From positions 76,446,001 through 76,510,000 of the forward strand of contig OZ024741.1 in the NCBI GenBank assembly GCA_964016885.1: a DNA stretch of 64,000 bases, read 5' to 3'. The position numbers and the translations under genes are program-made. How positions within the stretch are numbered: the first letter of the stretch is position 1; every line of letters starts with the position of its first letter. Origin of the DNA: Eledone cirrhosa (lineage: Eukaryota). This document shows positions 900 to 58,176 of this stretch, one piece after another. The notes beneath the pieces were generated by a model. That model was not told the DNA's origin, made no database searches, and saw only the letters and a list, made by a program, of their open reading frames with translations.

Positions 900-2874
900 C
901 TAGAGCAGAGGGAGCAATGGGTGACACTGTGAGCTCCCAAGAAAACTCTCATAACCCAGTGAGGTAGCTACGACGAGGCGAGTAAAGGCCACACCTAAAA
1001 ATGATTAATCTTCGGAGATCTGAGAAAAGTACGACTGGTGCGAATGAGACACAAACACACTGCAATGTGTGTAAACAGTAATAGCATCCCTACCACATTG
1101 TCTTTCACACGGGATAGAAAGGGACACATTAGGTAGAGGAACATGTTCGAAAAATATATTGAAGTCTCCATCCAACGCTGTAAGAAATGGCGATGGGCTT
1201 AAGACTTGTCCTAGGAGACATGGGATGGAAGCACAAAGTTGATCTTTTTATATGGCCATTAGTTTAAGTACTCTTGACTTAACAATTGATGTAATTGGTC
1301 TAAGTTTGGTAATGTTGAGCAGTTCACAGATACAGATACGGTCGCTGAGCCGCTTGCCAGTCATAAGTCTCATGATGTGGTTCTGGAATGTAGAGAGCTT
1401 CTGAAGTGACCTTGTTGTCCAATTAACACAATCAGGACCATATAACACAACTGGTAGGGTGTAAGTATCGAAGATCTTAGCCTTCAAATGGTAGGAAACT
1501 AGTTTTGATGTTAGTACTTCCTTGTTCTTGTTGAAAGCTGCCCAACCTAGAGCGATGCGATACTGCACAGTAACCATTCCATTGTTGTTTGATGATAGTT
1601 TGTGACAGAGATATACAAACTCTGTAACTTGAGTAATTTGCTGGTTATAGATTGTGAGATGGAGATTGGCATTGCTTTTATCAGTTGTCATACACTTTGT
1701 TTTGGAGATGTTGATGTGTAAGCCAGCCTCCAGCGAATGTTTGGCCAGTACATTCTGAAAGTCTTGCAGATCAGTTCTAGAGTAACTCATGATGGCCAGA
1801 TCATCTGCATAGCTAAGAGTTGATAGGATTTTACCTCCTATTTGATAGCCAGAAGAGCATTCTCCTTCAGTTTGGTAAATAAGTGCAGCTATAACTATAC
1901 AGAAAAAAAAGTGCTGATAGTACAAACCCCCTGCTTCAAGATGTCTATATAGCGTGTAGTTCCCAAGTCTGTTTTGATATATGCTGTTGAGTTGGTGTAA
2001 GTTTCTTTCAATATGTTGATGTATTTTTTGATAATTGAGGTCTTGTTTAAGAGTTGCCACAAGCTGGATAGTTTCACGTTGACAAAAGCTTTTGTGAAAT
2101 CAATGAAGGTGATGTGCACAGGGTTGTTGAATTCTATTGATTTCTCAATGGTTTGTTTAATAGCCTAGATCTGCTTAATGGTGCCTCTTCAAGGTTGATA
2201 CGCGGCTTGTGTTTCAGGAAATGAGGCGTAAAGGTCTGAACTCACTCGTGCTGCAGTGGTACTCATGAAAAGCTTATAAAAGTGACTCACTAAGCTGATA
2301 TGATGATAGTTCCCACAATCAAATCAAATCTGCTACCTTTTTTTGTAGAGCACAACTATGAATGCTTTCTTGAACATGCCTGGGCTTTTTCCTGTAGTGA
2401 TAATACAGTTAAAGAGATGTTGAAGTGCTTTGATAATTGGTTCACCTCCAACTTTCATGAATTCTGAGTGTATGTTGTCCAGTCCAGGGCTTTTTCCTCG
2501 CTCCAAATCTTTGATGGCATGAAATATCTCACTAGCCAAGGTAGATGGGATGGCATCTGCTGTCGAATCATGAATGGTTGTTGGTTCTGAGTTGCTGACG
2601 TACATTTCTTCATAGAATTTAGCCCAGCGTTCAGCGTCTTTGGAAGTAAGGATTATATCGTTTGAATCTTTAATGCCCCAGCTAAGTTTTCTTCATAACA
2701 GCATGATATAACCTGTTGGGTTGTAGGTTATTCAGCTCCTCGATGTTGTACATTTGCTTAAGTTTGTCTGATTTAACGAGTTTTCTTTTGATTCAGCATT
2801 TGCTATTCTATATGGCACATTCTCTTCTGATTCTATGTTTTTCAGATATTACTTTGTTTGTTTGTTGTGACATC
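900..2874 (-). mobile_element. RTE-type non-LTR retrotransposon, 3' body (linker, RT, C-terminus, 3'UTR), degraded
   Basis: Minus-strand ORF pieces carry RT motifs: GKSPGLDNIHSEFMK (2333-2605), FIDFTKAF (1895-2119), LSYADDLA and FVYL (1248-2060). Several frameshifts; ends in (TA)/(TG) microsatellite near 900. Confidence 0.85.
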
Positions 2875-4523
2875 GCGTGGTCGGGTCGTTGGCGACTAAA
2901 CCGGCAACCCCACCAAGTTTAATTGGTGAGGACGGTGATTCTGGACACCTTGTAGGACAAAAAACAAAACTTAACAAAGGGCGGAAGAACTCATAAGAGT
3001 CAACGGCCATCCAAAAATGTGTAAATATGTATATACTGTATGGGTGTGGGTGTGTGTAGGATTAATTGCATGTTTGTTTGTGTATATATGTATATATATT
3101 TGATAAAAGAAAACATTTTTAATTTTATTTTTTTTATTTTTTTTATTTAAAATTTTTTTTTAATTAAAAAATTTTTTAATTTAAATTTTTTTGTATATGC
3201 ATATGCCACGAAGGTTAAAGTACCAAGTTAAGATCTGGCGCGGTTTAGCCTCTCTTAATGAGGGTGGGTGGAATCTCTCTGAGTCTTGGTTGATAACTCA
3301 CCTAGTGATGGTATCACGATAAAAACACTGGTCTTTGCGTTACCTTACAAACGCCTTCTTCCAATATGCCTTGAGGCAGCATGGAAGAGTAGGCTCATAA
3401 AATTAACATGAAAAAGTCACCTCAAAGATTCGTTGTACAGAGGAGACCACCTCCGGATCCACGAAAAGTGAACTGGGGGCACAAAAGCAGCCCCAGACTG
3501 ATGTGAGAGCTATGACTAGGGGATCACACCAGCAACCTCGAACTACTTTGATTTATATGAATAGAAGAAACACCCAGACAAAAGAAAACACCTTCAATAT
3601 CTGCACATACAACACATGTACCATCAATGGCCGTAATACCAACTTTCTCGAGACAATGATATATGAACTTCAGAAAGTAAACTGGGAAATTATCAGACTA
3701 TCAGAGACTAAATCAAATGAAAACAAAATGAAGATACACCAAGATACCCGACACCATATTTATCTGTCAAGCAATGTGACTCGTTGCATGAATGGAGTGG
3801 GTTTCTTGGTGAACAAAAAGTGCGCATCATTAGTACACAACTATCGACCTATATCAGACAGACTAGCTATTCTGAGCTTGAAAAGTAAATTTTGTAAACT
3901 CGTATTTATCCAGTGCTACTTTCCCACATCTACACATCCAGATAAAGAAATCAATGACAACATACAGACCATTATAGATAAGACACGAAAGAGAGATCGC
4001 CTTTTTCTGATGGGTGACTTGAACTGCAAAATTGGGCAACTGAACGAATCATTCCCATAAAGTATTGGGAAATATACCACAGGTACATTTAACTCGAGAG
4101 GCGAGCTTCTAGCCGAATTTTGTACGAGAAACAATATGCAGATGACCAATAGAATATTTCAAAAGAAAAACCTGTTCACTTGGATATAATCAGACAGTAT
4201 AACTAAGAATCAAATAGACTTTATAATAGCAAGAAAATCTTCAGCAAGACTAAACATATTAGACAGCACTGCTCTTAACACACCTGATATATCTGACCCT
4301 CGAATGGTGCGCATGAGATTTCGCATCAACTTTGTTTGGGCACAAAGAACTAAAATACCATCGAAAGTTAACTTAGACAAACTCTCAGGTAACGAAACAA
4401 CAAGCTGATTTAAACTCGAGTTGCAAAACCGCTTTTTAGCTTTGCAATCGGATGAAGACCCTGAAAAGATTTATGATACTATCTGAAGAGGCATAAAAGA
4501 GGTATCTGAAGAGATTTTACCTA
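2875..4523 (+). mobile_element. 5' part (head module, 5'UTR, APE endonuclease) of the same RTE-type LINE, in inverted orientation
   Basis: ORF 3503-4060 has APE motifs (NICTYN, LSETK, GVGFLV, QCYFPT, MGDLNCKIG); broken frame continues through NQIDFI to LQNRF and EVSEEILP at 4523. 2876-3016 matches the head module at 15313-15507 and 52098-52294. Confidence 0.85.
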
Positions 4524-6844
4524 TGGGATGTTAATTAGTTCAAAATATAAGGGGAACAAATTTTCCGGTTCAAATATTTTTAAATTCTGTTTTCACTTTT
4601 CGTAAATTTCCTCTTTTTCCATTTTCACTTTTAATATATTCCATTTTTACCCCATTTTATTGTATCTCCTGGGTAAACAATTGTAGTAAATTTAATTAGT
4701 CATAGGAAAGTAGTTGAAATAACTCGATCGGAATGCTACAGTTGCTGTTGCTTGTGGTGTTCATCCCAGCCAAGTGTTTATAAGGCTATTATTGTTGTTT
4801 GATCTTATTTTTGTACATCAACCAGACCAAAGGACGTTTCGAAATTCTTCATTATCCTGGACCTGAAAACGCCCTCCGATATAAACAACTTATACCCTTC
4901 ATTGACCCTCTATATGATGTGACGGTTGACGTCTCACCTACCGCATTGTTCAACTGGTAATAACAGCATTACATATGCTAATAACAATAGTGAGATATTT
5001 AGATAGAAATATGTGGAAAAAATGGATGGGCAGGTAGTAATTGTGCTTTGTGCACGCTAGCCCCTAAAAATGGTGATAGACTTTGAATTCCAGAAGAAAA
5101 AACAGATGATTGAATTAAAAGATTAAAGAAAAAGAATGCCAACTTCTGTTTTTATTGAGAAAAAAGAAAAGCTAAGTCATGTGTTGATGTTAATAGAATT
5201 TATTGTTGTTTAACATCAAGTCAGATTTAGCCAAGTAGACCTATGTATATTTGGCTTCTTCGTTTTGTAAAACTATCAGTTCTAATTAATTAGCCACGGG
5301 ACAGCCTTGATCGAGAGAAACTATGTACAAAGGTATCTAAATATCCATGTTCTTTTGTGAGGTTTGATTTCAGGGAGATTTGGCTGCTATTTCTAGAAAG
5401 TCGACCAACCACATATAGGCTCTTTCTTTAGCTCGTAAAACTGTTGGCTTTTGATCTGACAGAAAAGATATCATTTCGGAGGTAGATTTCGAAGGTGACA
5501 GCTGGTTTGTTCTGGTTGTGGGACTTTAGGAGTTCTAGTGCTTTCTTCCTTCTTTATTATTTCCTTTTTCTTCTTTCTTTCTTTCCTTTTTTTTCTGTGA
5601 ACATATTTTTTTCTAACTAGCTTGTTTTTAGCCTTATTAAGGCCATTCTTCACAGAATCTTTTATCTTTCAATCTTTATATCATTACTTCTTTCAGCCAC
5701 CCTACTCTATATTTCTATATTTCTTTCTACATATCTACCTTTTTCTTTCTTTTTTTCTTTCTTTCTATCTTTCCTTCTTATTATCTTTCTTTTTTTCTTA
5801 TCTTTCTTTCATAAATTATTATTTTTTTTTGTCTATCTGTCTATTTATTTATCAATCAGTTTGTTTGTCTGTCTATCTGTGGTTCTTTCCGTCTTCCTAC
5901 TATTTAAATGTCTTTTGTTTCTTTCCATTGTTCTATTATTATTGGTTTTTCTACCCACCTTCTTTCTTTCTTTCTTCCTTTGTTTGTCTCTTTCTCTCTA
6001 CTTTTTTTAAAATATATATTCCGATCTCTCTTCTCTTCTCTTCTTTCTTTTCTTATTTTCCTAATATTTTATTCTCGTTCTGTCTGTATCTTTTTCCTTT
6101 AATCTTTATTTTTAACGTTGTTTTTGTCATTGTTGTCGTTGTTGTTGCTGTTGTTATTGTTTTTTTTGTCATTGCTGTTTTTGTTGTTATTATTGTTGTT
6201 GTTGCTAGTGATGTTGTTCCATCCATTCGTTCTCTTCTTTCGTTCAACTCCCGAATTATCAATCAGCCACAACTATCCAGTTTACTTGGATTCAGGGACG
6301 TAGCTAGAGAGAAGGTAGGGGTTTTGCCACTGTCCCCGAGCACATTCTTTAAAAGAGATGTCTTTTAAACAATGTTTTTAGCTGATTTTTTGTCCCCTCG
6401 TTATTTTTTATTAGTATTTTTTTACCTTAGACTCATTACGTTATTCGACCAACCTCTCAGCATTTTGGACTCTCCTGAGATATTCTGTAACCACTGACAT
6501 CTGTATAATATACACTTCTATTAGAGATTTTTAAACCTTGAAACTACGGTTGCATTTTATATACAAGAACTAGTTAGATGCATAAGCGATGCATAAGTGA
6601 TATGTATATATATAAACAAGAAAAAAAACGCAATTACTTCAACAGCATCGTCTAATACTTAGTATATACAATATATTTTTTCAGATTTCTTTGGTTGCAT
6701 TAGTGCGGTATTAAAACAAGTAAATTCTCTACGACTCTAAACAGATATTTAAATCTTTTCTTGTCAATATCTAGTGACTAAATTTGTAAATAATACCATA
6801 AAACATCAGTTCTATGATACTTTGCATTACAGTAATTCATACTT

Positions 6845-15010: not shown

Positions 15011-15012
<2 letters not shown>

Positions 15013-15507
15013 GAAGGCTACAAACTTTGATAAGAGTATTGCAATCGTTTGTCAGATTACAGAAAATGGTGCACTTTTAGACTACGGCCTGCCACACGAA
15101 CCTATAACATATTCTGAACAAGCAATGCCTGTGCTCGACCAATCCCACTCTCTCAGTAACGAAAACACTACCCGAAAAGGAGAACTGGTCAACATCATCA
15201 GATGCTTCTGAAGCCGCAGGTTTTTTTCTAGAGTTTCCCTCTCCTAGAAAGGTGTTGTGACAACAACTGGGGGCCTTTCACGCCCAGGTGAAAAAAATAG
15301 AAGAAAAGTAATGTTTGGATGGCCATTGACTCTGCCACGTTCCTCTGTCCTTTGTCGGGTCTTGTATTTCATCCTGTGGGGTATCCAAATACCATTCTCC
15401 ACACCAAGCAAGCTTGGTGGGGCTGCCAGTTTAGTCGCCGATGACCCGACCACGAGACAGGTTGCACTGGGTTACATATTACCAATAGCACTCGAGAGTG
15501 ACCTGAC
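15011..15507 (-). mobile_element. Short internally deleted RTE derivative (SIDE/SINE-like): head, RTE 5'UTR, RTE 3' tail
   Basis: 15066-15290 matches the RTE 5'UTR at 19033-19292 (with a ~36-nt gap); 15012-15057 matches the RTE 3' end at 15515-15561; no ORF. Confidence 0.9.
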
Positions 15508-15511
15508 ACAT

Positions 15512-18500
15512 GCATGATGGCTGCAAACTCTACCAAGAGTATTGCAATCGCTTGTCAGATTCAGATGTGGGACGCTCGGGTGTGGCTTTTCAAGCCTGCT
15601 AGAGACTTGCACTCCTTCACACACTGACGACAACTAGGGATCTCCCTGGCTTGAGGTCCCGCATCAGGTTGCCCGTGAACCCTCACAACACCGTGGAGAT
15701 CATAGTTCACTGGTTGTCTTTGAACATGGCTGCGACTGTGGCTCCTGAGACCAGATTTGCCCAAGCAAACTTTTCCACACTCAGGGCACTTCAATTCAAT
15801 GGAGACACCAATCGTTTCGAGAGATACACCAGGGCATTGCTTACGCACATCCCTTTTGATCTTCTCGTGCTCTATGCGTCTGTCCTCAAAATTATGGACC
15901 CCATCATTTACCATTCCACGCCAAGTTTCTCTTTCAAGAGCTGCTATCTCCCAGTCAGCCATCATCAAACCAGTTTTTTTCAATGTGTCCTTTCCACAAT
16001 CCTTGAATCGGAGCTTTGGTTTGTGAGGTTGTCTCTTACCCTCACAAAGCTCGCCATACAAGAGTTGGTTTGGGATTCGATCATCCTCCATTCTGCAGAG
16101 GTGTCCGGTCCATCGCAAACGCCGTTGGTGGATGATACTCTCAATGCTCCGACACTCACTTCTCTCAAGGACCTCATCATCACTCACATGCATCTGCCAC
16201 TTGATACTAAGCATCTTTCTGAAACACTGCTGGTGAAACCGTTCCAGTCTGTGGATATGCCGTTTGTAGGCAACCCATGTCTCACATGCATACAGCAAAG
16301 CTGACAGTATACATGCAGCATACACTCTCACCTTGGTCCTCATTGTGATTCCTCGCCTGCACCAAAGACGGTCGTTGAGCCTTCCAAATGACTCACTTGC
16401 CTTACTAACACGTAGACCAACTTCTGCATCCAGAGAGCAGGTCACACTCAGAGTACTCCCCAAATACACAAATGTGCCAGCAGCCTTCAGCTTTTGACCG
16501 TATACGTGTATGGAGGGTTCATTGAAAACTTTATCCGGAGCAGGTTGGTACATGACGACAGTCTTCTTCAGACTGATTGTAAGTCCCAAAGCACTGCACG
16601 CATTGGAAAAAGAATCTATAGGGTGTTGTATGTCACTCTGGGAGTGTGCAAAGAGATCACAATCATCTGCATATAAAAATTCTCTGATCAAGGTACTCAG
16701 TACCTTAGTGTTGGCAGTGAGACGCCTAAGGTTAAACAGCTTGCCGGAAGTGCGATATCTGAGATAGATACCGTGTTGACAATCCTTGAAGGCCATGAAG
16801 AACACCATCGCGAAATACAAGGCAAACAAAGTTGGTGCAGGTATATCACCCTGCTTGACACCATTTTCAACCGAGATTGGCTCAGACAGTTTACCTCCAA
16901 CATCAGCCATGCCTTCATGTCATCGTGGAATAGTTTCAGAATGTTCACAAACTTTTCTAGACAGCCCAATCTCTCTAAAATAACCCACAAAGCCTTCCAA
17001 TTAACGTTGTCAAATGCCTTAGTCAGATCGACAAAAACTTGGTATAAGTCCATGCGCTGCTCAATGCATTTCTCTTGAAGTTGTTTGGCCGAGAAGATCA
17101 TGTCAACAGTGCCTCTGCCATTCCTAAAGCCACATTGGGACTCAGGAAGTACCTCAACAGCAATGTGCTCTATCAATCTGTCCAACAATATCCTGCACAA
17201 GATTTTCCCAGCCACAGATAGCAGTGAAATACCTCTGTAGTTGCCACAGTAATCTTTGACTCCCTTTCCTTTGTAAAGTACCACCATCAGTGCATCTTTC
17301 CAATCCTGTGGCACATCTTCTTCATTCCAAACATTCACAAAGAGATCAGTGAGGCAGTTTAAGAAGTTATCACCAGCACACTTGAAAATCTCGACACTCA
17401 GTCCATCCATTCCAGGTGACTTGCCGCTGTTTAATTTGGCAATGGCCTTCACCATCTCATCAAATGAAGGAGGATCAGCCATTGCCAGCTTTGTAGGCCT
17501 GGATGGAATCGACCGGATGAACTCATCATCAATTTCTGATGGTCTGTTGAGAAGCTCATCAAAGCGGTCATGCCACCTGATCAGGATTTCCTTCGGATCT
17601 CTGAGCAATGCCTTGCCGTCCCCGGAGCGAAGTGGTGATATTTGTGAACCGGTTGGACCATACACCTCCCTGAGCAGACTGTATAGGAGCTTTGTATTAT
17701 GTCTATCTGAGGCCTTCTGGATTTCATCAGCCTTTTGGCTCCACCAGGTATCCTGCATGGCTCTCAACCGATGTTGCACACGTGCCTTGATCTGTCTGAA
17801 GGTCCGGTCACTCCTGTCAGAACGTGTCTCACACAACAATGATGTCAGCACTTCTTGTTTCTCTTCAAGCAAGGTCTGGATCACTGGATCATTTTCATCG
17901 AACCAGTCTTTATGCTTTCTATTGGTATGACCCAAAACTCCAGCACTAACACCATATACGGTTTTCTTCAATGATTCCCAAGTGTTTTCACATTTCATGG
18001 ACTCAAGGGACCTCGACAGCTCAGTTCTGACTTTCTCTGCTTTCAAACGAGCCACGTTTAGTTGTTTTAGAAGTGCAACCTTCTTCCCCTTTACTTTGGG
18101 CTTCACAACAAATTGAAACTTGGCGCACACCAGACGATGATCAGTCCAACATTCTGCGCCTCGCAATACACGAACCAACGTGATATCCCTGATATCACGC
18201 TTTCTTGTTAAAACGAAGTCAATAAGGTGCCACTTCTTAGAACCTGGTTGCATCCAAGTTGTCTTATATTTGTCTTTCTGCTGAAAGAGCGTGTTCCCAA
18301 CAACAAGATCCATCTCAGTGCACATATGCAACAGAAGTAGGCCATTGTTATTGAACTTACCTACTCCATGCCTGCCCATCACACTCCAAGCTTCCCAGTC
18401 ATTACCAACACGTGCATTAAAATCACCAAGGATGACAATCTTGTCTGCATAAGGTTTACCATGGATGACCTCTCTCAAAGACATGTAGAAACTTAGTTTT

Positions 18501-19308
18501 TCATCATCACTAGCACACATAGTAGGAGCGTACACACTGACCAGAGTCACAAAGCGGTTTTGAATCAGAGGGACTCTCATGGACATTATCCGATCATTGA
18601 ATCCACAAGGAAGATTTTCCAGCTTTGAGACGATTCCATTCCTGACTGCAAATGCGACCCCTGCCTCTCTCATACAACCCTCTGCTTCACCACTCCAATA
18701 GAAGGTACATCCTCCCTTCTGTTCTGTAAATTGACCCTCACCTGCCAATCTCGTTTCTGAAAGAGCAACGATGTCCATGCTATAGCGATCGAGTTCCCTC
18801 GACACCAAAGCAGATCTTCTTTCAGGGCGAGTTTTAATGGACTGGGAATCCAATAAAGTTCTTACATTCCAACATCCAATATTCAGAGGTTTGAACCTCC
18901 TTGCAGTTGTAGGATGACGACCGGGACCACGCTGCGGTGCCATGGGACACCTGCCGGGCCAGACCCCTTCACAATAAGTTCCAGAGCCCTTACTGCCATT
19001 GACTTCAAGGTTATCATCTGCATCATAGAGTTTGGTGCACTTTTAGGCTAGGGCCAGCCACACGAACCTGTAACAGATCCTGAACAAGCGATGCCTGTGC
19101 TTTGAAGGTTTTTGTAAGTGTGGAAAGGCCTTGCACGTGACCAATCCCACTCTCTGAGCATCGAAAACACTACCCGAAAAGGAGAACTGGTCAACATCAT
19201 CGGATGCTTCCAAAGCCGCAGGTTTTTTTTTCAGAGTTTCCCTCTCCTAGAAAGGTGTTGTGACAACAACTGGGGGCCCTTCACTCCCAGGTAAAATAAT
19301 AAAAAAGA
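15512..19308 (-). mobile_element. Near full-length RTE LINE (lacks the 5' head module)
   Basis: 5'UTR 18944-19308, APE-RT ORF, short 3'UTR ending GCAGCCATCATG; (CATA)n lies at the 5' flank. Confidence 0.97.
15561..18943 (-). pseudogene. RTE polyprotein (APE endonuclease, reverse transcriptase, two C2H2 fingers) split by one frameshift near 16905-16915
   Basis: ORF 16697-18943: GCWNVRTL, ALSETRL, LGDFNARVG, WTDHRLV, YRGISLLS, ESQCGFR, FVDLTKAFD. ORF 15561-16910: GVKQGDI, FLYADDC, FVYLGS, CPECGK..HSRSH, CRQC..HTRASH. Confidence 0.95.
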
Positions 19309-20898: not shown

Positions 20899-21372
20899 AT
20901 GGTGGCTGCCAACTCGTTTTCGAGTACGGCCACTACTTTATATCCATGTAGGAGAACCCCTACCGATGCGCTGAACGAGTGTGACTTTTTAGTCCAGACA
21001 GCGACTTGAAAACTCTGGTACAAACACTACACTTGTGACAATTATTGACACATAGTGCTGGGCCCATGGTACCATGTGACGGCAAGTGCAGAGAGATTCC
21101 AGATATAAAGCAATGCCTGTGCCGTGAAGCTTTTATAGTGAGCAAAGGCACTGCACAAAGCCAGTCCCACTCTCTTAACCAAGATGATATTTACCAAAAA
21201 GAAGAACAAGTCAACATCATTGGATACCATCAGGGTGCAGGTGTTATATCAGAGTTTTCCTTCTCCTAGAATTCTGCCTTGACAAAGGCTAAGGGGTCAT
21301 CCTGCAGGACTAAAAACAAAACCTGTCAAAGGGCAAAGGAGCTCTTAAGAGTCAATGGCCATCCAAAATCAC
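20899..21372 (-). mobile_element. RTE-derived SINE/SIDE family 2, with inverted 5' segment 21298-21372
   Basis: 20899-21300 is nearly identical to 51685-52088; tail encodes [26 protein letters not shown], an RTE C-terminal zinc finger; sits inside (CATA)n. Confidence 0.92.
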
Positions 21373-28139: not shown

Positions 28140-31100
28140 CTCCTATCACCACCACAACCACAACCACAACCACTACCATCACTACCATAACCAGCACTAA
28201 CAGCCACCATCACTCCACCACCATCACTACCACTACCACCACCACTACCACCACCACAACCACCACTACCACCACCACAACCACCACTACCATAACCAGC
28301 GCTAACAGCAACAGCAGCCACCACCACCACCAGCACTAACAACAGCCACTACCACTACTATCAACACCAACAACAACAGCCACTACCTCTACTACCAACA
28401 CTAACAACAACAGCCACTACCACAACCACCACCACCACTAACAACAGCCACTACCACCACCACCACCACTAACAACAGCCACTACCACCACCTCCACCAC
28501 TAACAACAGCCACTACCACCACCACCACCACTAACAACAGCAGCGACCACCCCACCACCAACACTAACAACAGCAGCGACCACCACCACCACCACCACCA
28601 ACACTAACAACAGCCACTACCACCACCACCAACACTAACAACAGCAGCGACCACCACCACCACTCACACTAACAACAGCAGCGACCACCACCACCACTCA
28701 CACTAACAACAGCAGCGACCACCACCACCACTCACACTAACAACAGCAGCGACCACCACCACCACCAACACTAGCAACAGCAGCGACCACCACCACCACC
28801 ACCAACACTAACAACAGCAGCGACCACCACCACCACTCACACTAACAACAGCAGCGACCACCACCACTCACACTAACAACAGCAGCGACCACCACCACTC
28901 ACACTAACAACAGCCACTACCACCACCACCACTAACAACAGCAGCGACCACCGCCACCACCAACACTAACAATAGCAGCGACCACCACCACCACCAACAC
29001 TAACAACAGCAGCGACCACCGCCACCACCAACACTAACAATAGCAGCGACCACCACCACCACCAACACTAACAACAGCAGCGACCACCACCACCAACACT
29101 AACAACAGCCACTACCACCACCACCACCACTAACAACAGCCACTACCACCACCACCACCACTAACAACAGCAGCGACCACCACCACCACCACCACTAACA
29201 ACAGCCACTACCACCACCACCAACACTAACAACAGCCACTACCACCACCACCACCACCAACACTAACAACAGCAGCGACCACCACCACCACCAACACTAA
29301 CAACAGCAGCGACCACCACCACCACCAACACTAACAACAGCAGCGACCACCACCGCCACCACCACCACTAACAACAGCCACTACCACCACCACCACCACT
29401 AACAACAGCCACTACCACCACCACCACCACTAACAACAGCAGCGACCACCACCACCACCACCACTAACAACAGCAGCGACCACCACCACCACCAACACTA
29501 ACAACAGCAGCGACCACCACCACCACCAACACTAACAACAGCAGCGACCACCACCACCACCACCAACACTAACAACAGCCACTACCACCACCACCACCAC
29601 TAACAACATCAGCGACCACCACCACCACCAACACTAACAACAGCAGCGACCACCACCACCACCACCACTAACAACAACAGCGACCACCACCACCACCACC
29701 ACCACTAACAACAGCCACCACCACCACCACCAACACTAACAACAGCCACTACCACCACCACCACCACTAACAACAGCCACTACCACCACCACCACCACTA
29801 ACAACAGCAGCGACCACCACCACCACCACCACCACTAACAACAGCCACTACCACCACCACCACCACTAACAACAGCAGCGACCACCACCACCACCACCAC
29901 CACTAACAACAGCCACCACCACCACCACCACCACTAACAACAGCCACCACCACCACCACCACCACTAACAACAGCAGCGACCACCACCACCACCACCACT
30001 AACAACAGCCACTACCACCACCACCAACACTAACAACAGCAGCGACCACCACCACCACCACCAACACTAACAACAGCAGCGACCACCACCACCACCAACA
30101 CTAACAACAGCAGCGACCACCACCACCACCAACACTAACAACAGCAGCGACCACCACCACCAACACTAACAACAGCAGCGACCACCACCACCACCAACAC
30201 TAACAATAGCAGCGACCACCACCACCACCACCACCACTAACAACAGCCACTACCACCACCACCAACACTAACAACAGCAGCGACCACCACCACCACCACC
30301 ACCACTAACAACAGCCACTACCACCACCACCAACACTAACAACAGCGACCACCACCACCACCACCACCACTAACAACAGCCACCACCACCACCACCAACA
30401 CTAACAACAGCAGCGACCACCACCACCACCACCACTAACAACAGCCACTACCACCACCACCAACACTAACAACAGCAGCGACCACCACCACCACCAACAC
30501 TAACAATAGCAGCGACCACCACCACCACCACCACCACTAACAACAGCCACTACCACCACCACCAACACTAACAACAGCAGCGACCACCACCACCACCAAC
30601 ACTAACAATAGCAGCGACCACCACCACCACCAACACTAACAATAGCAGCGACCACCACCACCACCACCACCACTAACAACAGCCACCACCACCACCACCA
30701 ACACTAACAACAGCAGCGACCACCACCACCACCAACACTAACAACAGCCACTACCACCACCACCAACACTAACAATAGCAGCGACCACCACCACCACCAC
30801 CACCACTAACAACAGCCACCACCACCACCACCAACACTAACAACAGCAGCGACCACCACCACCACCAACACTAACAACAGCCACTACCACCACCACCAAC
30901 AATAACAACAGCGACCACCACCACCACCACCACCACTAACAACAGCAGCGACCACCACCACCACCACCACCACTAACAACAGCCACTACCACCACCACCA
31001 ACACTAACAACAGCAGCGACCACCACCACCACTCACACTAACAACAGCAGCGACCACCACCACCACCACCAACACTAACAACAGCGACCACCACCACCAC

Positions 31101-32990
31101 CACCAACACTAACAACAACAGCCACTACCACCACCACCAACACTAACAATAGCAGCGACCACCACCACCACCACTAACAACAGCGACCACCACCACCACC
31201 AACACTAACAACAGCGACCACCACCATCACCACCACCACTAACAACAGCGACCACCACCACCACCAACACTAACAACAGCGACCACCACCACCACCACCA
31301 CCACTAACAACAGCAGCGACCACCACCACGACCACCACTAACAACAGCGACCACCACCACCACCAACACTAACAACAGCAGCAACCACCACCACCACCAA
31401 CACTAACAACAGCGACCACCACCACCACCACCACCACCACCACCAACACTAACAACAGCAGCGACCACCACCACCACCACCACTAACAACAGCCACTACC
31501 ACCACCACCACCACCACTAACAACAGCGACCACCACCACCACTCACACTAACAACAGCAGCAACCACCACCACCACTCACACTAACAACAGCAGCGACCA
31601 CCACCACCACCAACACTAACAACAACAGCGACCACCACCACCACTCACACTAACAACAGCAGCGACCACCACCACCACCACCAACACTAACAACAGCAAC
31701 GACCACCACCACCACCACCAACACTAACAACAGCAGCGACCACCACCACCACCACCACTAGCAACAGCAGCGACCACCACCACCACCAACACTAACAACA
31801 GCAGCGACCACCACCACCACTCACACTAACAACAGCAGCGACCACCACCACCACCAACACTAACATCAGCAGCGACCACCACCACCACCAACACTAACAA
31901 CAGCCACCACCACCACCACCACCACCACCACTAACAACAGCGACCACCACCACCACCACCACTAACAACAGCCACCACCACCACCACTAACAACAGCCAC
32001 CACCACCACCACCACCACTAACAACAGCCACCACCACCACCACCACCACCACCACTAACAACAGCCACCACCACCACCACCACCACTAACAACAGCGACC
32101 ACCACCACCACCACCACCACCACTAACAACAGCGACCACCACCACCACCACCACCACTAACAACAGCGACCACCACCACCACCACCACCACCACCACTAA
32201 CAACAGCGACCACCACCACCACCACTAACAACAGCCACCACCACCACCACCACCACTAACAACAGCGACCACCACCACCACCACCACTAACAACAGCCAC
32301 CACCACCACCACCACCACTAACAACAGCCACCACCACCACCACTAACAACAGCCACTACCACCACCACTAGCAACAGCAGCGACCACCACCACCACCACT
32401 AACAACAGCCACCACCACCACCACCACCACCACTAACAACAGCCACCACCACCACCACCACCACTAACAACAGCGACCACCACCACCACCACCACTAACA
32501 ACAGCGACCACCACCACCACCACCACCACTAACAACAGCGACCACCACCACCACCACCACTAACAACAGCGACCACCACCACCACCACCACTAACAACAG
32601 CCACCACCACCACCACCACCACTAACAACAGCCACCACCACCACCACCACCACTAACAACAGCCACTACCACCACCACTAGCAACAGCAGCGACCACCAC
32701 CACCACCACTAACAACAGCCACCACCACCACCACCACCACCACTAACAACAGCCACCACCACCACCACCACCACTAACAACAGCGACCACCACCACCACC
32801 ACCACTAACAACAGCGACCACCACCACCACCACTAACAACAGCCACCACCACCACCACCACTAACAACAGCCACCACCACCACCACCACCACTAACAACA
32901 GCCACCACCACCACCACCACCACTAACAACAGCCACCACCACCACCACCACTAACAACAGCCACTAACAACAACATCAATAATTACAATA
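28140..32990. repeat. Minisatellite, unit ACTAACAACAGC(AGCG/C)(ACC)n, about 25-35 bp
   Basis: Direct reading; units are mostly 3n+1 long, so TAA/TAG stops recur in every frame. Confidence 0.97.
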
Positions 32991-51684: not shown

Positions 51685-51688
<4 letters not shown>

Positions 51689-52291
51689 TGGCTGCCAACT
51701 CGTTTTCGAGTACGGCCACTACTTTATATCCATGTAGGAGAGCCCCTACCGATGCACTGAACAAGTGTGACTTTTTAGTCCAGCCAGCGACTTGAAAACT
51801 CTGGTACAAACACTACACTTGTGACAATTATTGACACATAGTGCTGGGCCCATGGTACCATGTGATGACAAGTGCAGAGAGATCTCCAGATATAAAGCAA
51901 TGCCTGTGCTGTGAAGCTTTTATAGTGAGCAAAGGCACTGCACAAAGCCAGTCCCACTCTCTTAACCAAGATGATATTTACCAAAAAGAAGAACAACTCA
52001 ACATCATTGGATACCATCAGAGTTGCAGGTGTTATATCAGAGTTTTCCTTCTCCTAGAATTCTGCCTTGACAAAGGCTAAGGGGTCATCTCTCCCGGTGA
52101 TTTTGGATGGCCATCGACTCTTAAGAGCTTCTTTGCCCTTTGACAGGTTTTGTTTTTAGTCCTGCAGGATGTCCAAAGTCACTCTCTTCACCAAGAAACC
52201 TTGGTAGGGTTGCCAGTTTAGTCGCCAACGACCCGACCATGGGACAGGTTGTACTGGGATACATGTTACTAGTAGCACCAACTGGTGACCT

Positions 52292-52294
<3 letters not shown>
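51685..52294 (-). mobile_element. Full-length RTE-derived SINE/SIDE family 2
   Basis: Head GTCAGGTCAC..GGCGACTAAACTGG, RTE-like UTR CTAGGAGAAGGAAAACTCTG, zinc-finger tail, 3' end GCAGCCACCAT then (AT)n. Confidence 0.92.
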
Positions 52295-55967: not shown

Positions 55968-57616
<1,649 letters not shown>

Positions 57617-57825: not shown

Positions 57826-58176
57826 ATTATTATTGTCGTTATTGTTATTATCTTTTTTTTTTCGTGCTGTGGCCATACTCGATAACGAGGGGGCAGCCAT
57901 CATATATGTATGTATGTAGGTATATATATGAATCTACCTACCTATATATGTACTAAGAACAAACGTAGGGTGGAGGAAGTAAAAGTAAGGCCACCCACAT
58001 CGAAGAAGATGCTGAAGTGGCCATCGTTAAAGTCCAACAGCAAAAACCTTAAACTCTCCGGAGACAAAGGCCAATGAAAGACAGCGACACTCGATTTTAA
58101 TGGTCGTCTACTTTTATGTCCGTGTGTTTAGGTATGCGCGTATGTACATACGTACGTACGTATGTACATATGTATG

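What the first reader, a model, noticed from the sequence alone, without database searches (positions are those of the whole stretch)
15313..15507. Structured 5' head module shared by an RTE LINE and two short RTE-derived families; possible non-canonical ribozyme
Seen: the same ~200-nt head occurs at 15313-15507 (-), 52098-52294 (-), 2876-3016 (+, LINE) and 21298-21372 (partial), in front of three different bodies. Both complete copies start at GTCAGGTCAC. Pairings by eye: CCAGU/ACUGG long range; GUCAGGU/ACCUGUC (or GGUCAC/GUGGUC) crossing it as a pseudoknot; hairpin CACU..AGUG vs CACC..GGUG, a compensatory change between copies; hairpin GUCG-UUGG-CGAC before UAA. Known: RTE elements elsewhere have HDV-like or twister ribozymes at this position. 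I could not fit either consensus cleanly. Inference: an exchangeable 5'-processing RNA or internal promoter, possibly a variant fold.
Basis: partly seen in the sequence, partly recalled or inferred. Interest (0 to 1): 0.78.

Follow-up and report, generated by a model that had tools for sequence, protein, structure and literature searches.

The report
Virus-like RNA knot starts jumping genes
The first 60 bases of a very common jumping-gene family in this animal genome match, feature for feature, the knotted RNA that flaviviruses use to stop the cell's 5'-to-3' RNA-degrading enzyme, and this piece has replaced a predicted self-cutting ribozyme on another jumping-gene family three times, so it likely marks and shields the start of the element's RNA, which would be a first for such a knot outside viruses.

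Summary
The shared ~195-nt head is real (about 35,000 copies, estimated) and sits on three RTE-type LINE lineages only 23-31% identical in protein, plus their short derivatives. It is not an HDV-like or twister ribozyme: it fits a strict HDV descriptor no better than shuffles. Nucleotides 1-59 instead meet every sequence-testable feature of a flavivirus subclass 1a exoribonuclease-resistant RNA (xrRNA) in all five family heads: 5-bp P1, P2, single C, P3, U-A-U triple, G-C pseudoknot 1 and a 4-7-bp pseudoknot 2. Ten of 283,600 shuffles match. Rfam's flavivirus SL-IV model also hits it, weakly and below its cut-off. One LINE lineage whose other head is a textbook HDV-like fold captured this head at three different junctions, lost that fold each time and kept multiplying. 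Best reading (0.62): an xrRNA that sets and protects the 5' end of read-through transcripts. Against: no assay, no covariation in the core, unremarkable folding energy, a competing helix, and insertions often flush at G1 although Xrn1 stops about 4 nt upstream. Two papers (2021, 2025) state that no cellular xrRNA is known. The scan had not noted this before.

The parts
52236..52294 (-). Head nt 1-59, family B: xrRNA-like three-way junction with two pseudoknots
   Evidence: Descriptor match at nt 1; the family-B copy L202 hits Rfam RF01415 at E 0.026; coordinates
52098..52235 (-). Head nt 60 to about 195, family B: domain of covarying hairpins, function unknown
51686..52294 (-). Complete short non-autonomous RTE-derived element, family B (608 nt), in (AT)n
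15449..15507 (-). Head nt 1-59, family A, decayed copy: fails the xrRNA descriptor on its own, while the family consensus passes
15313..15448 (-). Head nt 60 to about 195, family A
15011..15507 (-). Complete short element, family A: 5' UTR plus 3' tail of the LINE beside it (bipartite RTE), inserted behind that LINE's tail
15508..19304 (-). Near-complete RTE LINE with endonuclease, RT and C-terminal zinc finger, one frameshift, truncated just behind its head; 16 of 20 copies examined carry head A
2873..3016 (+). Head nt 51-192, family C, first part of the inverted 5' segment of a LINE; lacks the xrRNA-like domain
2873..4530 (+). Inverted 5' segment of LINE C: head fragment, 5' UTR, endonuclease region
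1254..2873 (-). 3' segment of the same LINE C copy (RT region)
   Evidence: P0002 aa 393-946 aligns here at 30-59%
21295..21372 (+). Inverted fragment (head nt 121 to about 198) of a family-B copy
20900..21301 (-). Body and tail of that family-B copy, 97% identical to the 52098 copy

Best explanation
The first 59 nucleotides of the head carry all sequence-testable features of a flavivirus subclass 1a exoribonuclease-resistant RNA (xrRNA) and likely fold into that ring-like knot, which would stop host 5'-to-3' exoribonucleases (Xrn1/Xrn2) at or just before nucleotide 1. The element would be transcribed by read-through from host genes or neighbouring repeats (inferred); decay from the 5' side would trim the transcript to the knot and leave a protected unit-length RNA that is reverse-transcribed into copies starting at G1 (inferred). 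This is the job HDV-like ribozymes do on other non-LTR elements, which would explain why the head replaced such a fold three times on one LINE lineage and spread across three lineages by RT template switching. Shown: sequence features, covariation of outer hairpins, head exchange, sharp 5' start. Inferred: the 3D fold, nuclease resistance, read-through transcription.
For: (1) A descriptor built from published subclass 1a features (PMC7527734, PMC8374639, PMC8571300) matches the consensus of families A, B, C and D, the metagenome homolog L156, and copies L403, L202 and window 52294, each once and each at nt 1. It matches 10 of 283,600 dinucleotide shuffles anywhere, and 2 places in 1.18 Mb of random genome (590 kb, both strands), one of them a head copy; the HDV-type head E does not match. 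(2) I derived the three-way junction plus loop-to-downstream pseudoknot from comparison before the xrRNA hit appeared. (3) Rfam RF01415 (Flavivirus SL-IV) aligns end to end, stem for stem: 25.9 bits, E 0.026; 19.3 bits, E 0.15; 15.2 bits, E 1.1. The three genome-wide matches it returned are all head copies. (4) G1, U2, C20, A22, U42 and C44, the positions of pseudoknot 1, the triple and the junction C, are invariant across the five heads; variable core positions 29, 36, 37, 45 and 51-53 fall in loops or linkers, and P2 is the stem that varies freely, as in flaviviruses. (5) One ORF lineage (93-97% nt identical) has two heads: an HDV-like fold (1 deviation from the strict descriptor) or head B, joined at three different junctions (12, 2 and 3 copies), the HDV-like fold being deleted each time. 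(6) 11 of 15 such LINE copies with a visible start begin at G1, preceded by T (6), A (3) or C (2).
Against: No experiment. All Rfam scores are far below the gathering score of 54.5; two other small-window scans (L068; L156) did not report the model at E<=10; the genome search scored only 64 of 216,717 candidates and its E-values were 6.6-9, with hits also in 7 of 14 control genomes. P1, P3 and pseudoknot 2 show no two-sided change among the five heads, so the core is supported by pattern, not covariation. The descriptor was written after the Rfam alignment was seen, and its spacing comes from that alignment and from recalled structures. Nested folding energy of nt 1-63 is no better than shuffles (z +0.5 to +0.8 in four, -0.9 in one) and only 1 of 5 minimum-energy folds is the full junction. 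A 7-bp helix (nt 55-61 with the end of the head), possible in all five heads, overlaps pseudoknot 2. Class 1 xrRNAs halt Xrn1 about four nt upstream of pseudoknot 1 (PMC12081666), which predicts a fixed leader; yet by target-site duplication 3 of 7 informative head-B LINE copies are flush at G1, one starts at C3, and three have 2-4 extra bases, much like the ribozyme-headed copies (0, 0, 1, 2, 3, 7). The upstream TAT in 30 of 48 unbiased copies may come from the microsatellite targets. The window copy at 15507 fails the descriptor.
Confidence: 0.62

Rival explanations
1. The head is an internal RNA polymerase II promoter that starts transcription at G1; 5' switching spread it because it frees an element from host read-through. 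The RNA fold is secondary (it may still guard decapped RNA).
For: The core is conserved in sequence without covariation (50 of 64 positions invariant in nt 20-83), as DNA binding sites would be. Starts flush at G1 suit an initiation site. RTE 5' UTR switching has been read as promoter turnover in plants (10.1101/2022.11.04.512097), and L1Tc Pr77 is both promoter and ribozyme (PMC3185411). Head-bearing families reach about 35,000 copies against 51 candidates for head E.
Against: It does not explain the match to xrRNA features or the compensatory changes in four hairpins. An extra G before G1, which a reverse-transcribed cap may leave (recalled for L1; one search found no supporting passage), is absent in 11 of 11 head-B LINE junctions. 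A review states that RTEs with HDV-like ribozymes carry no promoter (PMC6765202).
Confidence: 0.17
2. The head is a self-cleaving ribozyme of HDV-like descent or of a new class that cuts just before G1.
For: It replaces an HDV-like fold; start at G1 with any base at -1; G1 can pair with nt 52; an invariant CUAA follows a hairpin; a relaxed HDV descriptor puts families A-D in one register anchored at G1 with 4-5 deviations (16 of 275 shuffles reach 5 or fewer). Rfam misses even the textbook head E, so Rfam's silence on ribozymes is uninformative.
Against: Strict descriptor: 6-8 deviations, shuffle median 8, against 1 for head E. The relaxation was made after the fact and needs two insertions and a bulge in the core. 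It fails for L156 (6) and its P3 is broken in 9 of 13 LINE-A heads with U45. The same nucleotides fit the xrRNA pattern with no deviation.
Confidence: 0.12
3. The knot-like fold is real but serves another purpose: a binding site for the ORF protein, cap-independent translation, or a stop signal for reverse transcriptase.
For: 5'-truncated or inverted copies cluster at nt 51-58, the 3' foot of the domain (4 of 66 unbiased A-C hits; 5 of 24 non-self family-D loci start at nt 55, read by eye; the window's LINE C). The downstream hairpin domain is conserved and unexplained.
Against: It works with three proteins only 23-31% identical, which argues against protein-specific recognition, and it does not explain how the RNA acquires its 5' end after loss of the HDV-like fold.
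Confidence: 0.09

Closest known systems
Flavivirus subclass 1a xrRNA (MVEV, ZIKV, DENV, WNV; Rfam RF01415 Flavivirus_SLIV)
   Same: Order and size of P1 (5 bp), P2, single junction C, P3, two-nucleotide linker, U-A-U triple positions, G-C pseudoknot 1, loop-to-downstream pseudoknot 2 of 4-7 bp, following hairpin; the 5' GUCAG start and CCUG of P1.
   Different: Lies at the 5' end of a cellular retrotransposon, not in a viral 3' UTR; scores 15-30 bits against a cut-off of 54.5; longer L3 than the model; followed by a 135-nt hairpin domain with a helix that competes with pseudoknot 2; resistance untested.
HDV-like ribozymes at the 5' ends of R2, RTE, Baggins and L1Tc/NARTc elements
   Same: Position at nucleotide 1, sharp start at a G with any base upstream, shared by autonomous and internally deleted elements, interchangeable on one ORF here.
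   Different: No P2-P3-L3-P1'-GG arrangement (6-8 deviations); would set the 5' end passively through host decay (5'-phosphate) rather than by cleavage (5'-OH).
Twister T-variant of Perere-3 (Schistosoma RTE-type element; PMC8501958)
   Same: 5'-end processing RNA of a non-LTR element that inserts at many sites.
   Different: T-variant copies start with A residues next to the target-site duplication; these start with G. No twister model hit in any Rfam scan.
Bipartite non-autonomous RTE elements and 5' switching (PMC5786205; 10.1101/2022.11.04.512097)
   Same: Short elements made of LINE 5' UTR plus 3' tail; non-homologous 5' ends on one body; family D carries a close match to the 23-bp RTE motif printed in PMC5786205.
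   Different: The swap is between an HDV-like fold and an xrRNA-like fold, across lineages 23-31% identical in protein; in the parts I read, these papers describe no such structure.

Membership tests
Subclass 1a xrRNA | Three-way junction: P1 5 bp, P2 1-9 bp, P3 4-8 bp | tested here: met
   P1 5, P2 4-6, P3 6-7 bp in all five heads; P2 covaries; P1 and P3 have no two-sided change among the heads
Subclass 1a xrRNA | Single conserved C between P2 and P3 | tested here: met
   C20 in all five heads and LINE-A copy L403
Subclass 1a xrRNA | U-A-U base triple between the 5' end and P3 | tested here: met
   U2, A22, U42 present in all five heads; sequence only, register taken from the Rfam alignment and recalled structures
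Subclass 1a xrRNA | Pseudoknot 1 of 1-2 bp with a G-C pair | tested here: met
   G1 and C44 in all five heads; the optional second pair depends on the flank base (T with A45 in 121 of 169 rows, which include 24 tandem-array units)
Subclass 1a xrRNA | Pseudoknot 2 of 2-7 bp between L3 and downstream sequence | tested here: met
   4, 4, 5, 6 and 7 bp in A, B, C, D, M; a competing 7-bp helix exists
Subclass 1a xrRNA | P4 hairpin after pseudoknot 2 | tested here: met
   3-4-bp hairpin in all five, register differs in D
Subclass 1a xrRNA | Rfam RF01415 gathering score (54.5 bits) | tested here: not met
   15.2-29.6 bits; not reported for L068 and L156
Subclass 1a xrRNA | 5' end about four nt upstream of pseudoknot 1 | tested here: inconclusive
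   Insertions carry 0-4 extra bases, also seen for ribozyme-headed copies
Subclass 1a xrRNA | Ring-like 3D fold and protein-free Xrn1 resistance | not testable with these tools
   needs decay assay, probing, structure
HDV-like ribozyme | Nested double pseudoknot P1-P2-P3-L3-P1'-GG-P4-CNRA-P2' (descriptor recalled; source papers not held) | tested here: not met
   6-8 deviations against shuffle range 4-11 (n=275) and 1 for head E
HDV-like ribozyme | 5' end at a G with any base upstream | tested here: met
   11 of 15 head-B LINE copies start at G1; -1 base T 6, A 3, C 2
HDV-like ribozyme | Self-cleavage, 5'-OH product | not testable with these tools
   needs assay
Twister / T-variant, hammerhead, pistol, hatchet, twister-sister | Class consensus core | tested here: not met
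   No such model among the matches; cores not seen by eye in the consensus heads. Rfam's sensitivity is limited (it missed head E)
tRNA-headed SINE / Pol III element | tRNA-like head, no internal T runs | tested here: not met
   ARAGORN 0 genes in 5 of 5 loci; long T runs directly behind heads A and C; head drives 3.4-kb LINEs
RTE-type LINE with bipartite derivatives | Single ORF with AP endonuclease and RT, short 3' UTR with microsatellite tail; short copies made of 5' UTR plus tail | tested here: met
   clade assignment rests on architecture and the motif of PMC5786205, no reference tree was built
Pol II internal promoter | Drives capped transcripts from +1 | not testable with these tools
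   no raw RNA reads available

The most novel reading that the evidence does not exclude
These RTE retrotransposons use a flavivirus-type xrRNA as their 5' end: host Xrn1/Xrn2 decay carves unit-length element RNA out of read-through transcripts, a third way to start a LINE besides internal promoters and self-cleaving ribozymes. It would be the first functional class 1 xrRNA in a cellular genome, present in tens of thousands of copies, swapped between distant LINE lineages, and a candidate source or recipient of the flaviviral fold.
Probability: 0.5. Interest if true: 0.93.

Novelty: new variant of a known kind. Interest (0 to 1): 0.85.

Why it matters
A 2021 review asks whether xrRNAs exist in eukaryotic genomes and says they have been characterized only in viruses (PMC8374639, section 7); a 2025 paper states that no analogous structures have been identified in cellular RNAs (PMC12081666). 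This head is a specific, one-gel-testable candidate. If it resists Xrn1 it adds a new mechanism for making retrotransposon RNA, explains how RTE elements without promoter or ribozyme get a precise 5' end, predicts tens of thousands of decay roadblocks in host introns and transcripts, raises the question of exchange between flaviviruses and retroelements, and offers a natural 5' protector for RNA templates in LINE-based gene writing (PMC13708176 describes the protective role of the ribozyme fold there). The natural swap with an HDV-like fold on one ORF is of interest whichever mechanism holds.

Tried and rejected
Rfam at gathering threshold over the window: 0 matches; this is uninformative, since E-value scans also missed the textbook HDV-like head E. 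HDV-like, relaxed HDV-like, twister, hammerhead, pistol and hatchet readings: rejected (by eye). tRNA or Pol III head: rejected. RNase P substrate (G1-paired 7-bp stem): considered by eye, no T-loop, not tested further. Upstream TAT as a fixed part of the element: not established, since copies in unique flanks start after A, C or T, and the seed sets were biased by their queries. A mobilised dimer with an internal head (L064, L069-72, L087): these are duplications of 9 kb or more. Homologs elsewhere: metagenome scan gave 1 locus; viral scans gave 0, 2 chance matches, and 120 pattern matches of which 0 have the P3 partner strand; 12 prokaryote matches are chance; phages none; no LINE relative in viral contigs. 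The DNA around 26 related RTE proteins could not be obtained. No RNA holder listed among public runs; contigs of four runs show the family-B element in other organisms' runs but cannot show an RNA start. One search was aimed at the flank of L210 by mistake and repeated. The tblastn step printed nothing and was redone; P5 and P6 registers were off by one, and P5 was redone. No covariance model of the head was built; R-scape is not available.

Full report
Observation. Two descriptions need correcting. The piece at 21295-21372(+) is the inverted 5' part of a copy whose body runs 21301->20895 on the minus strand and is 97% identical to the 52098 element. The LINE behind 2873 is inverted too: head nt 51 onward and the endonuclease region are on plus (to 4530), the RT region on minus (2873->1254). 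Both read as twin-priming insertions (inference), and both show that head and body were one transcript. The window also contains, at 15508-19304(-), a near-complete RTE LINE with endonuclease, RT and a C-terminal zinc finger; the short element at 15011-15507 consists of that LINE's 5' UTR and tail.

Family structure. The genome is a 3.0-Gb animal assembly; that it is a cephalopod is my guess from its repeats and was not tested. An HMM of the head found 7 copies in 590 kb of evenly picked stretches, about 35,000 genome-wide (Poisson range roughly 14,000-73,000, my calculation). Four genomic subfamilies (A, B, C and an older D) and one homolog M from a metagenome contig (L156) are 76-92% identical; M's best match in this genome is 83%. 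Family D carries a close match to the 23-bp RTE motif printed in PMC5786205.

Exchange between lineages. Head A precedes the zinc-finger LINE in 16 of 20 loci, 13 from G1. A head lies within 1.5 kb upstream of the window's second LINE in 7 of 20 loci, 5 in sense and 2 inverted. Head B precedes a third, near-intact LINE. The three proteins are 23-31% identical (the C lineage is represented by its endonuclease and by the 57%-identical P0002), while heads A and C are 92% identical. The third LINE also exists, 93-94% identical from the ORF-proximal UTR onward, with an unrelated head E. Head E fits a strict HDV-like descriptor with one deviation, and 11 of 20 E copies retain its first eight bases. 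Of 20 further copies fetched from protein hits not already seen with head E, 13 had head B, 1 a piece of E and 6 no UTR. With four earlier loci this gives 17 head-B LINEs at three junctions (12, 2, 3 copies), two of which include body sequence of the short B element. Each junction removes the HDV-like fold and occurs at two or more loci with different flanks, so the chimeras went on retrotransposing. The short B tail differs from this LINE's tail, which fits capture of the head from short B by template switching (inference). Head B can therefore stand in for an HDV-like fold.

5' ends. 11 of 15 head-B LINE copies with a visible start begin at G1, after T (6), A (3) or C (2); four are cut at nt 5-14. 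Short copies sit in (AT)n or (ATGT)n; TAT precedes G1 in 30 of 48 unbiased copies, in 7 out of phase with the flank, while clean target-site duplications end flush at G1 in L314 and L330. Duplications located for LINE copies (3' end not found for 3 of 12 head-B and 5 of 11 head-E copies, 2 head-B copies uninformative) leave 0, 0, 0, 2, 3, 4 extra bases and one start at C3 for head B, and 0, 0, 1, 2, 3, 7 for head E. So the RNA starts at or within a few bases of G1, and these data do not separate cleavage, initiation and trimming.

Structure. Four outer hairpins covary: 94 of 95 cells paired over 19 columns, 10 of 11 variable columns keep pairing, 6 change on both sides; column shuffles give 82.2 +/- 2.4 and 0 of 20,000 reach 94 (five related sequences, so not a probability). 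The core nt 20-83 is invariant at 50 of 64 positions and shows no covariation. From these comparisons I had noted a three-way junction (nt 3-7 with 46-50; hairpin 8-19; nt 21-26 with 38-43) whose loop pairs with nt 54-58 (note). It is not HDV-like: strict descriptor 6-8 deviations, shuffles 4-11 with median 8 (n=275); a post-hoc relaxed fit reaches 4-5 for A-D (16 of 275 shuffles reach 5 or fewer) but is broken by U45 in 9 of 13 LINE-A heads. The descriptor is recalled; Ruminski 2011 and Webb 2009 were not held.

The xrRNA match. A small-window Rfam scan of a head-B copy returned RF01415, Flavivirus 3' UTR stem-loop IV, over nt -5 to 67 (25.9 bits, E 0.026). A LINE-A head gave 19.3 bits (E 0.15) and a D head 15.2 bits (E 1.1, second of two matches); L068 and L156 gave no such match at E<=10. 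In the alignment every stem of the model falls on a stem of my fold, and pairs in P1, P2 and P3 differ from the model's letters while staying paired. A genome-wide search with the model returned three matches, all head copies (29.0-29.6 bits, E 6.6-9, cut-off 54.5; 64 of 216,717 candidates scored; 7 of 14 control genomes also rang below cut-off). That SL-IV is an xrRNA is my knowledge of the field. Published subclass 1a features are: P1 5 bp, P2 1-9 bp, P3 4-8 bp, one conserved C between P2 and P3, a U-A-U triple, pseudoknot 1 of at most 2 bp with a G-C pair (PMC7527734; PMC8374639), pseudoknot 2 of 2-7 bp (PMC8571300). A descriptor of these features matched A, B, C, D, M and copies L403, L202 and window 52294, each once, at nt 1, with pseudoknot 2 of 4-7 bp; it did not match the decayed window copy at 15507 or head E; it matched 10 of 283,600 shuffles and 2 places in 1.18 Mb of genome strands, one a head copy. 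It accounts for invariant bases that the ribozyme models left unexplained: U2 (triple with A22-U42), G1 with C44, and C20.

Against this reading. Nothing is assayed. The core lacks covariation. The descriptor was written after the Rfam alignment was seen. Nested folding energies are ordinary (z +0.5 to +0.8 in four of five), although such programs ignore pseudoknots and triples. A 7-bp helix between nt 55-61 and the end of the head is possible in all five heads and excludes pseudoknot 2; it could be a switch or could mean the knot is not the main fold. Xrn1 halts about four nt upstream of pseudoknot 1 in class 1 xrRNAs (PMC12081666), which should leave a fixed leader; flush G1 junctions then require loss of those bases at integration. 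Non-LTR 5' junctions are known to be imprecise (PMC3774820), so this is possible but unproven.

Mechanism. Most likely (0.62): element RNA arises by read-through, is opened by decapping or endonucleolytic cleavage, and is trimmed by Xrn1/Xrn2 to the knot, which then shields it in place of a cap. Rivals: Pol II internal promoter (0.17, compatible with a protective fold), self-cleavage (0.12), another role of the fold (0.09). It works like a subclass 1a xrRNA by pattern; I do not file it as a member of RF01415 (cut-off not met) or as a proven xrRNA (resistance untested). Origin is open: capture from a flavivirus, the reverse, or convergence; no viral homolog was found, in collections that are mostly phage.

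Novelty. HDV-like and twister ribozymes on RTE-type elements, bipartite RTEs and 5' switching are known (PMC6765202, PMC8501958, PMC5786205, 10.1101/2022.11.04.512097). An xrRNA on a retroelement was not found: one search ('exoribonuclease-resistant RNA' and 'retrotransposon') listed 9 papers, none on this by title or abstract start; one search listed the top 40 of 8,359 loose matches, one with a single mention of xrRNA; searches gave no description of this head. Subscription journals and Repbase were not searched. PMC8374639 (2021) and PMC12081666 (2025) say no cellular xrRNA has been characterized; the former notes putative copies in flavivirus-derived mosquito sequence. The scan's own index had nothing on this sequence, genome or idea.

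What I saw of each paper: PMC5786205 and PMC8374639, parts 1-3 of 5; 10.1101/2022.11.04.512097, abstract and section 12; PMC6765202, PMC8501958, PMC10879173, PMC4604424, PMC3185411, PMC3774820, PMC9115989, PMC13708176, PMC7527734, PMC12081666, PMC8571300, selected passages. No figures or supplements were read; the alignments and Repbase sequences in the supplements of PMC5786205 and PMC7527734 could bear on whether this head is already catalogued and on descriptor spacing.

Noticed in passing
L210:3990-4270(-); L355-L374: Head E is a textbook HDV-like ribozyme fold with a long J1/2 (1 deviation from the strict descriptor) on an RTE LINE of about 50 copies; Rfam misses it even at E<=10.
   Followed up: partly
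head nt 55-61 and about 184-190 (window 52234-52240 and about 52105-52111, minus strand): A 7-bp long-range helix possible in all five heads closes the downstream hairpin domain exactly at the end of the shared module and overlaps pseudoknot 2; possibly a switch.
   Followed up: partly
L226-L228, L239, L241-L244, L407: The first five bases of the head are duplicated at the 5' junction in 8 of 30 loci (a query that selects for it) and in L407; fits RT slippage at a template end at G1.
   Followed up: partly
L146 and L147 (C12, about 7.0 and 7.4 Mb): Tandem arrays of a roughly 55-nt unit derived from nt 10-66 of a family-D head, that is, repeats of most of the xrRNA-like domain.
   Followed up: no
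L204-L207, L211, L214-L217, L219, L220: A further RTE LINE family with a third, unrelated head; not tested against either descriptor. L204 has a fold-back duplication of it that gives false microRNA hits.
   Followed up: no
L009, L013, L016, L019, L022, L023: Head A on a different short body with a different tail: another non-autonomous family.
   Followed up: no
L203, L387, L389: Chimeric LINEs carrying almost the whole short B element as their 5' UTR.
   Followed up: partly
window 28148-32964: A 4.8-kb CAC/AAC-rich minisatellite, period 31-34, about 143 copies.
   Followed up: no
window 56397-57056 (-) and 57869-57927: Another RTE-like 3' remnant and a tail-like match.
   Followed up: no
L210:4270-4530; L340-L354: An unrelated young repeat of about 260 nt, 97-100% identical, 1,294 candidates.
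   Followed up: no
L395-L397: A duplicated block of 9 kb or more on two contigs (92-97% identical) containing a LINE end and a head-C element.
   Followed up: yes
P0001-P0026: Unnamed full-length RTE-type proteins (about 1,000 aa, 29-57% identical to the window's LINE C endonuclease) on 3.2-3.9-kb contigs of public assemblies; their 5' UTRs are the obvious place to look for diverged heads.
   Followed up: no
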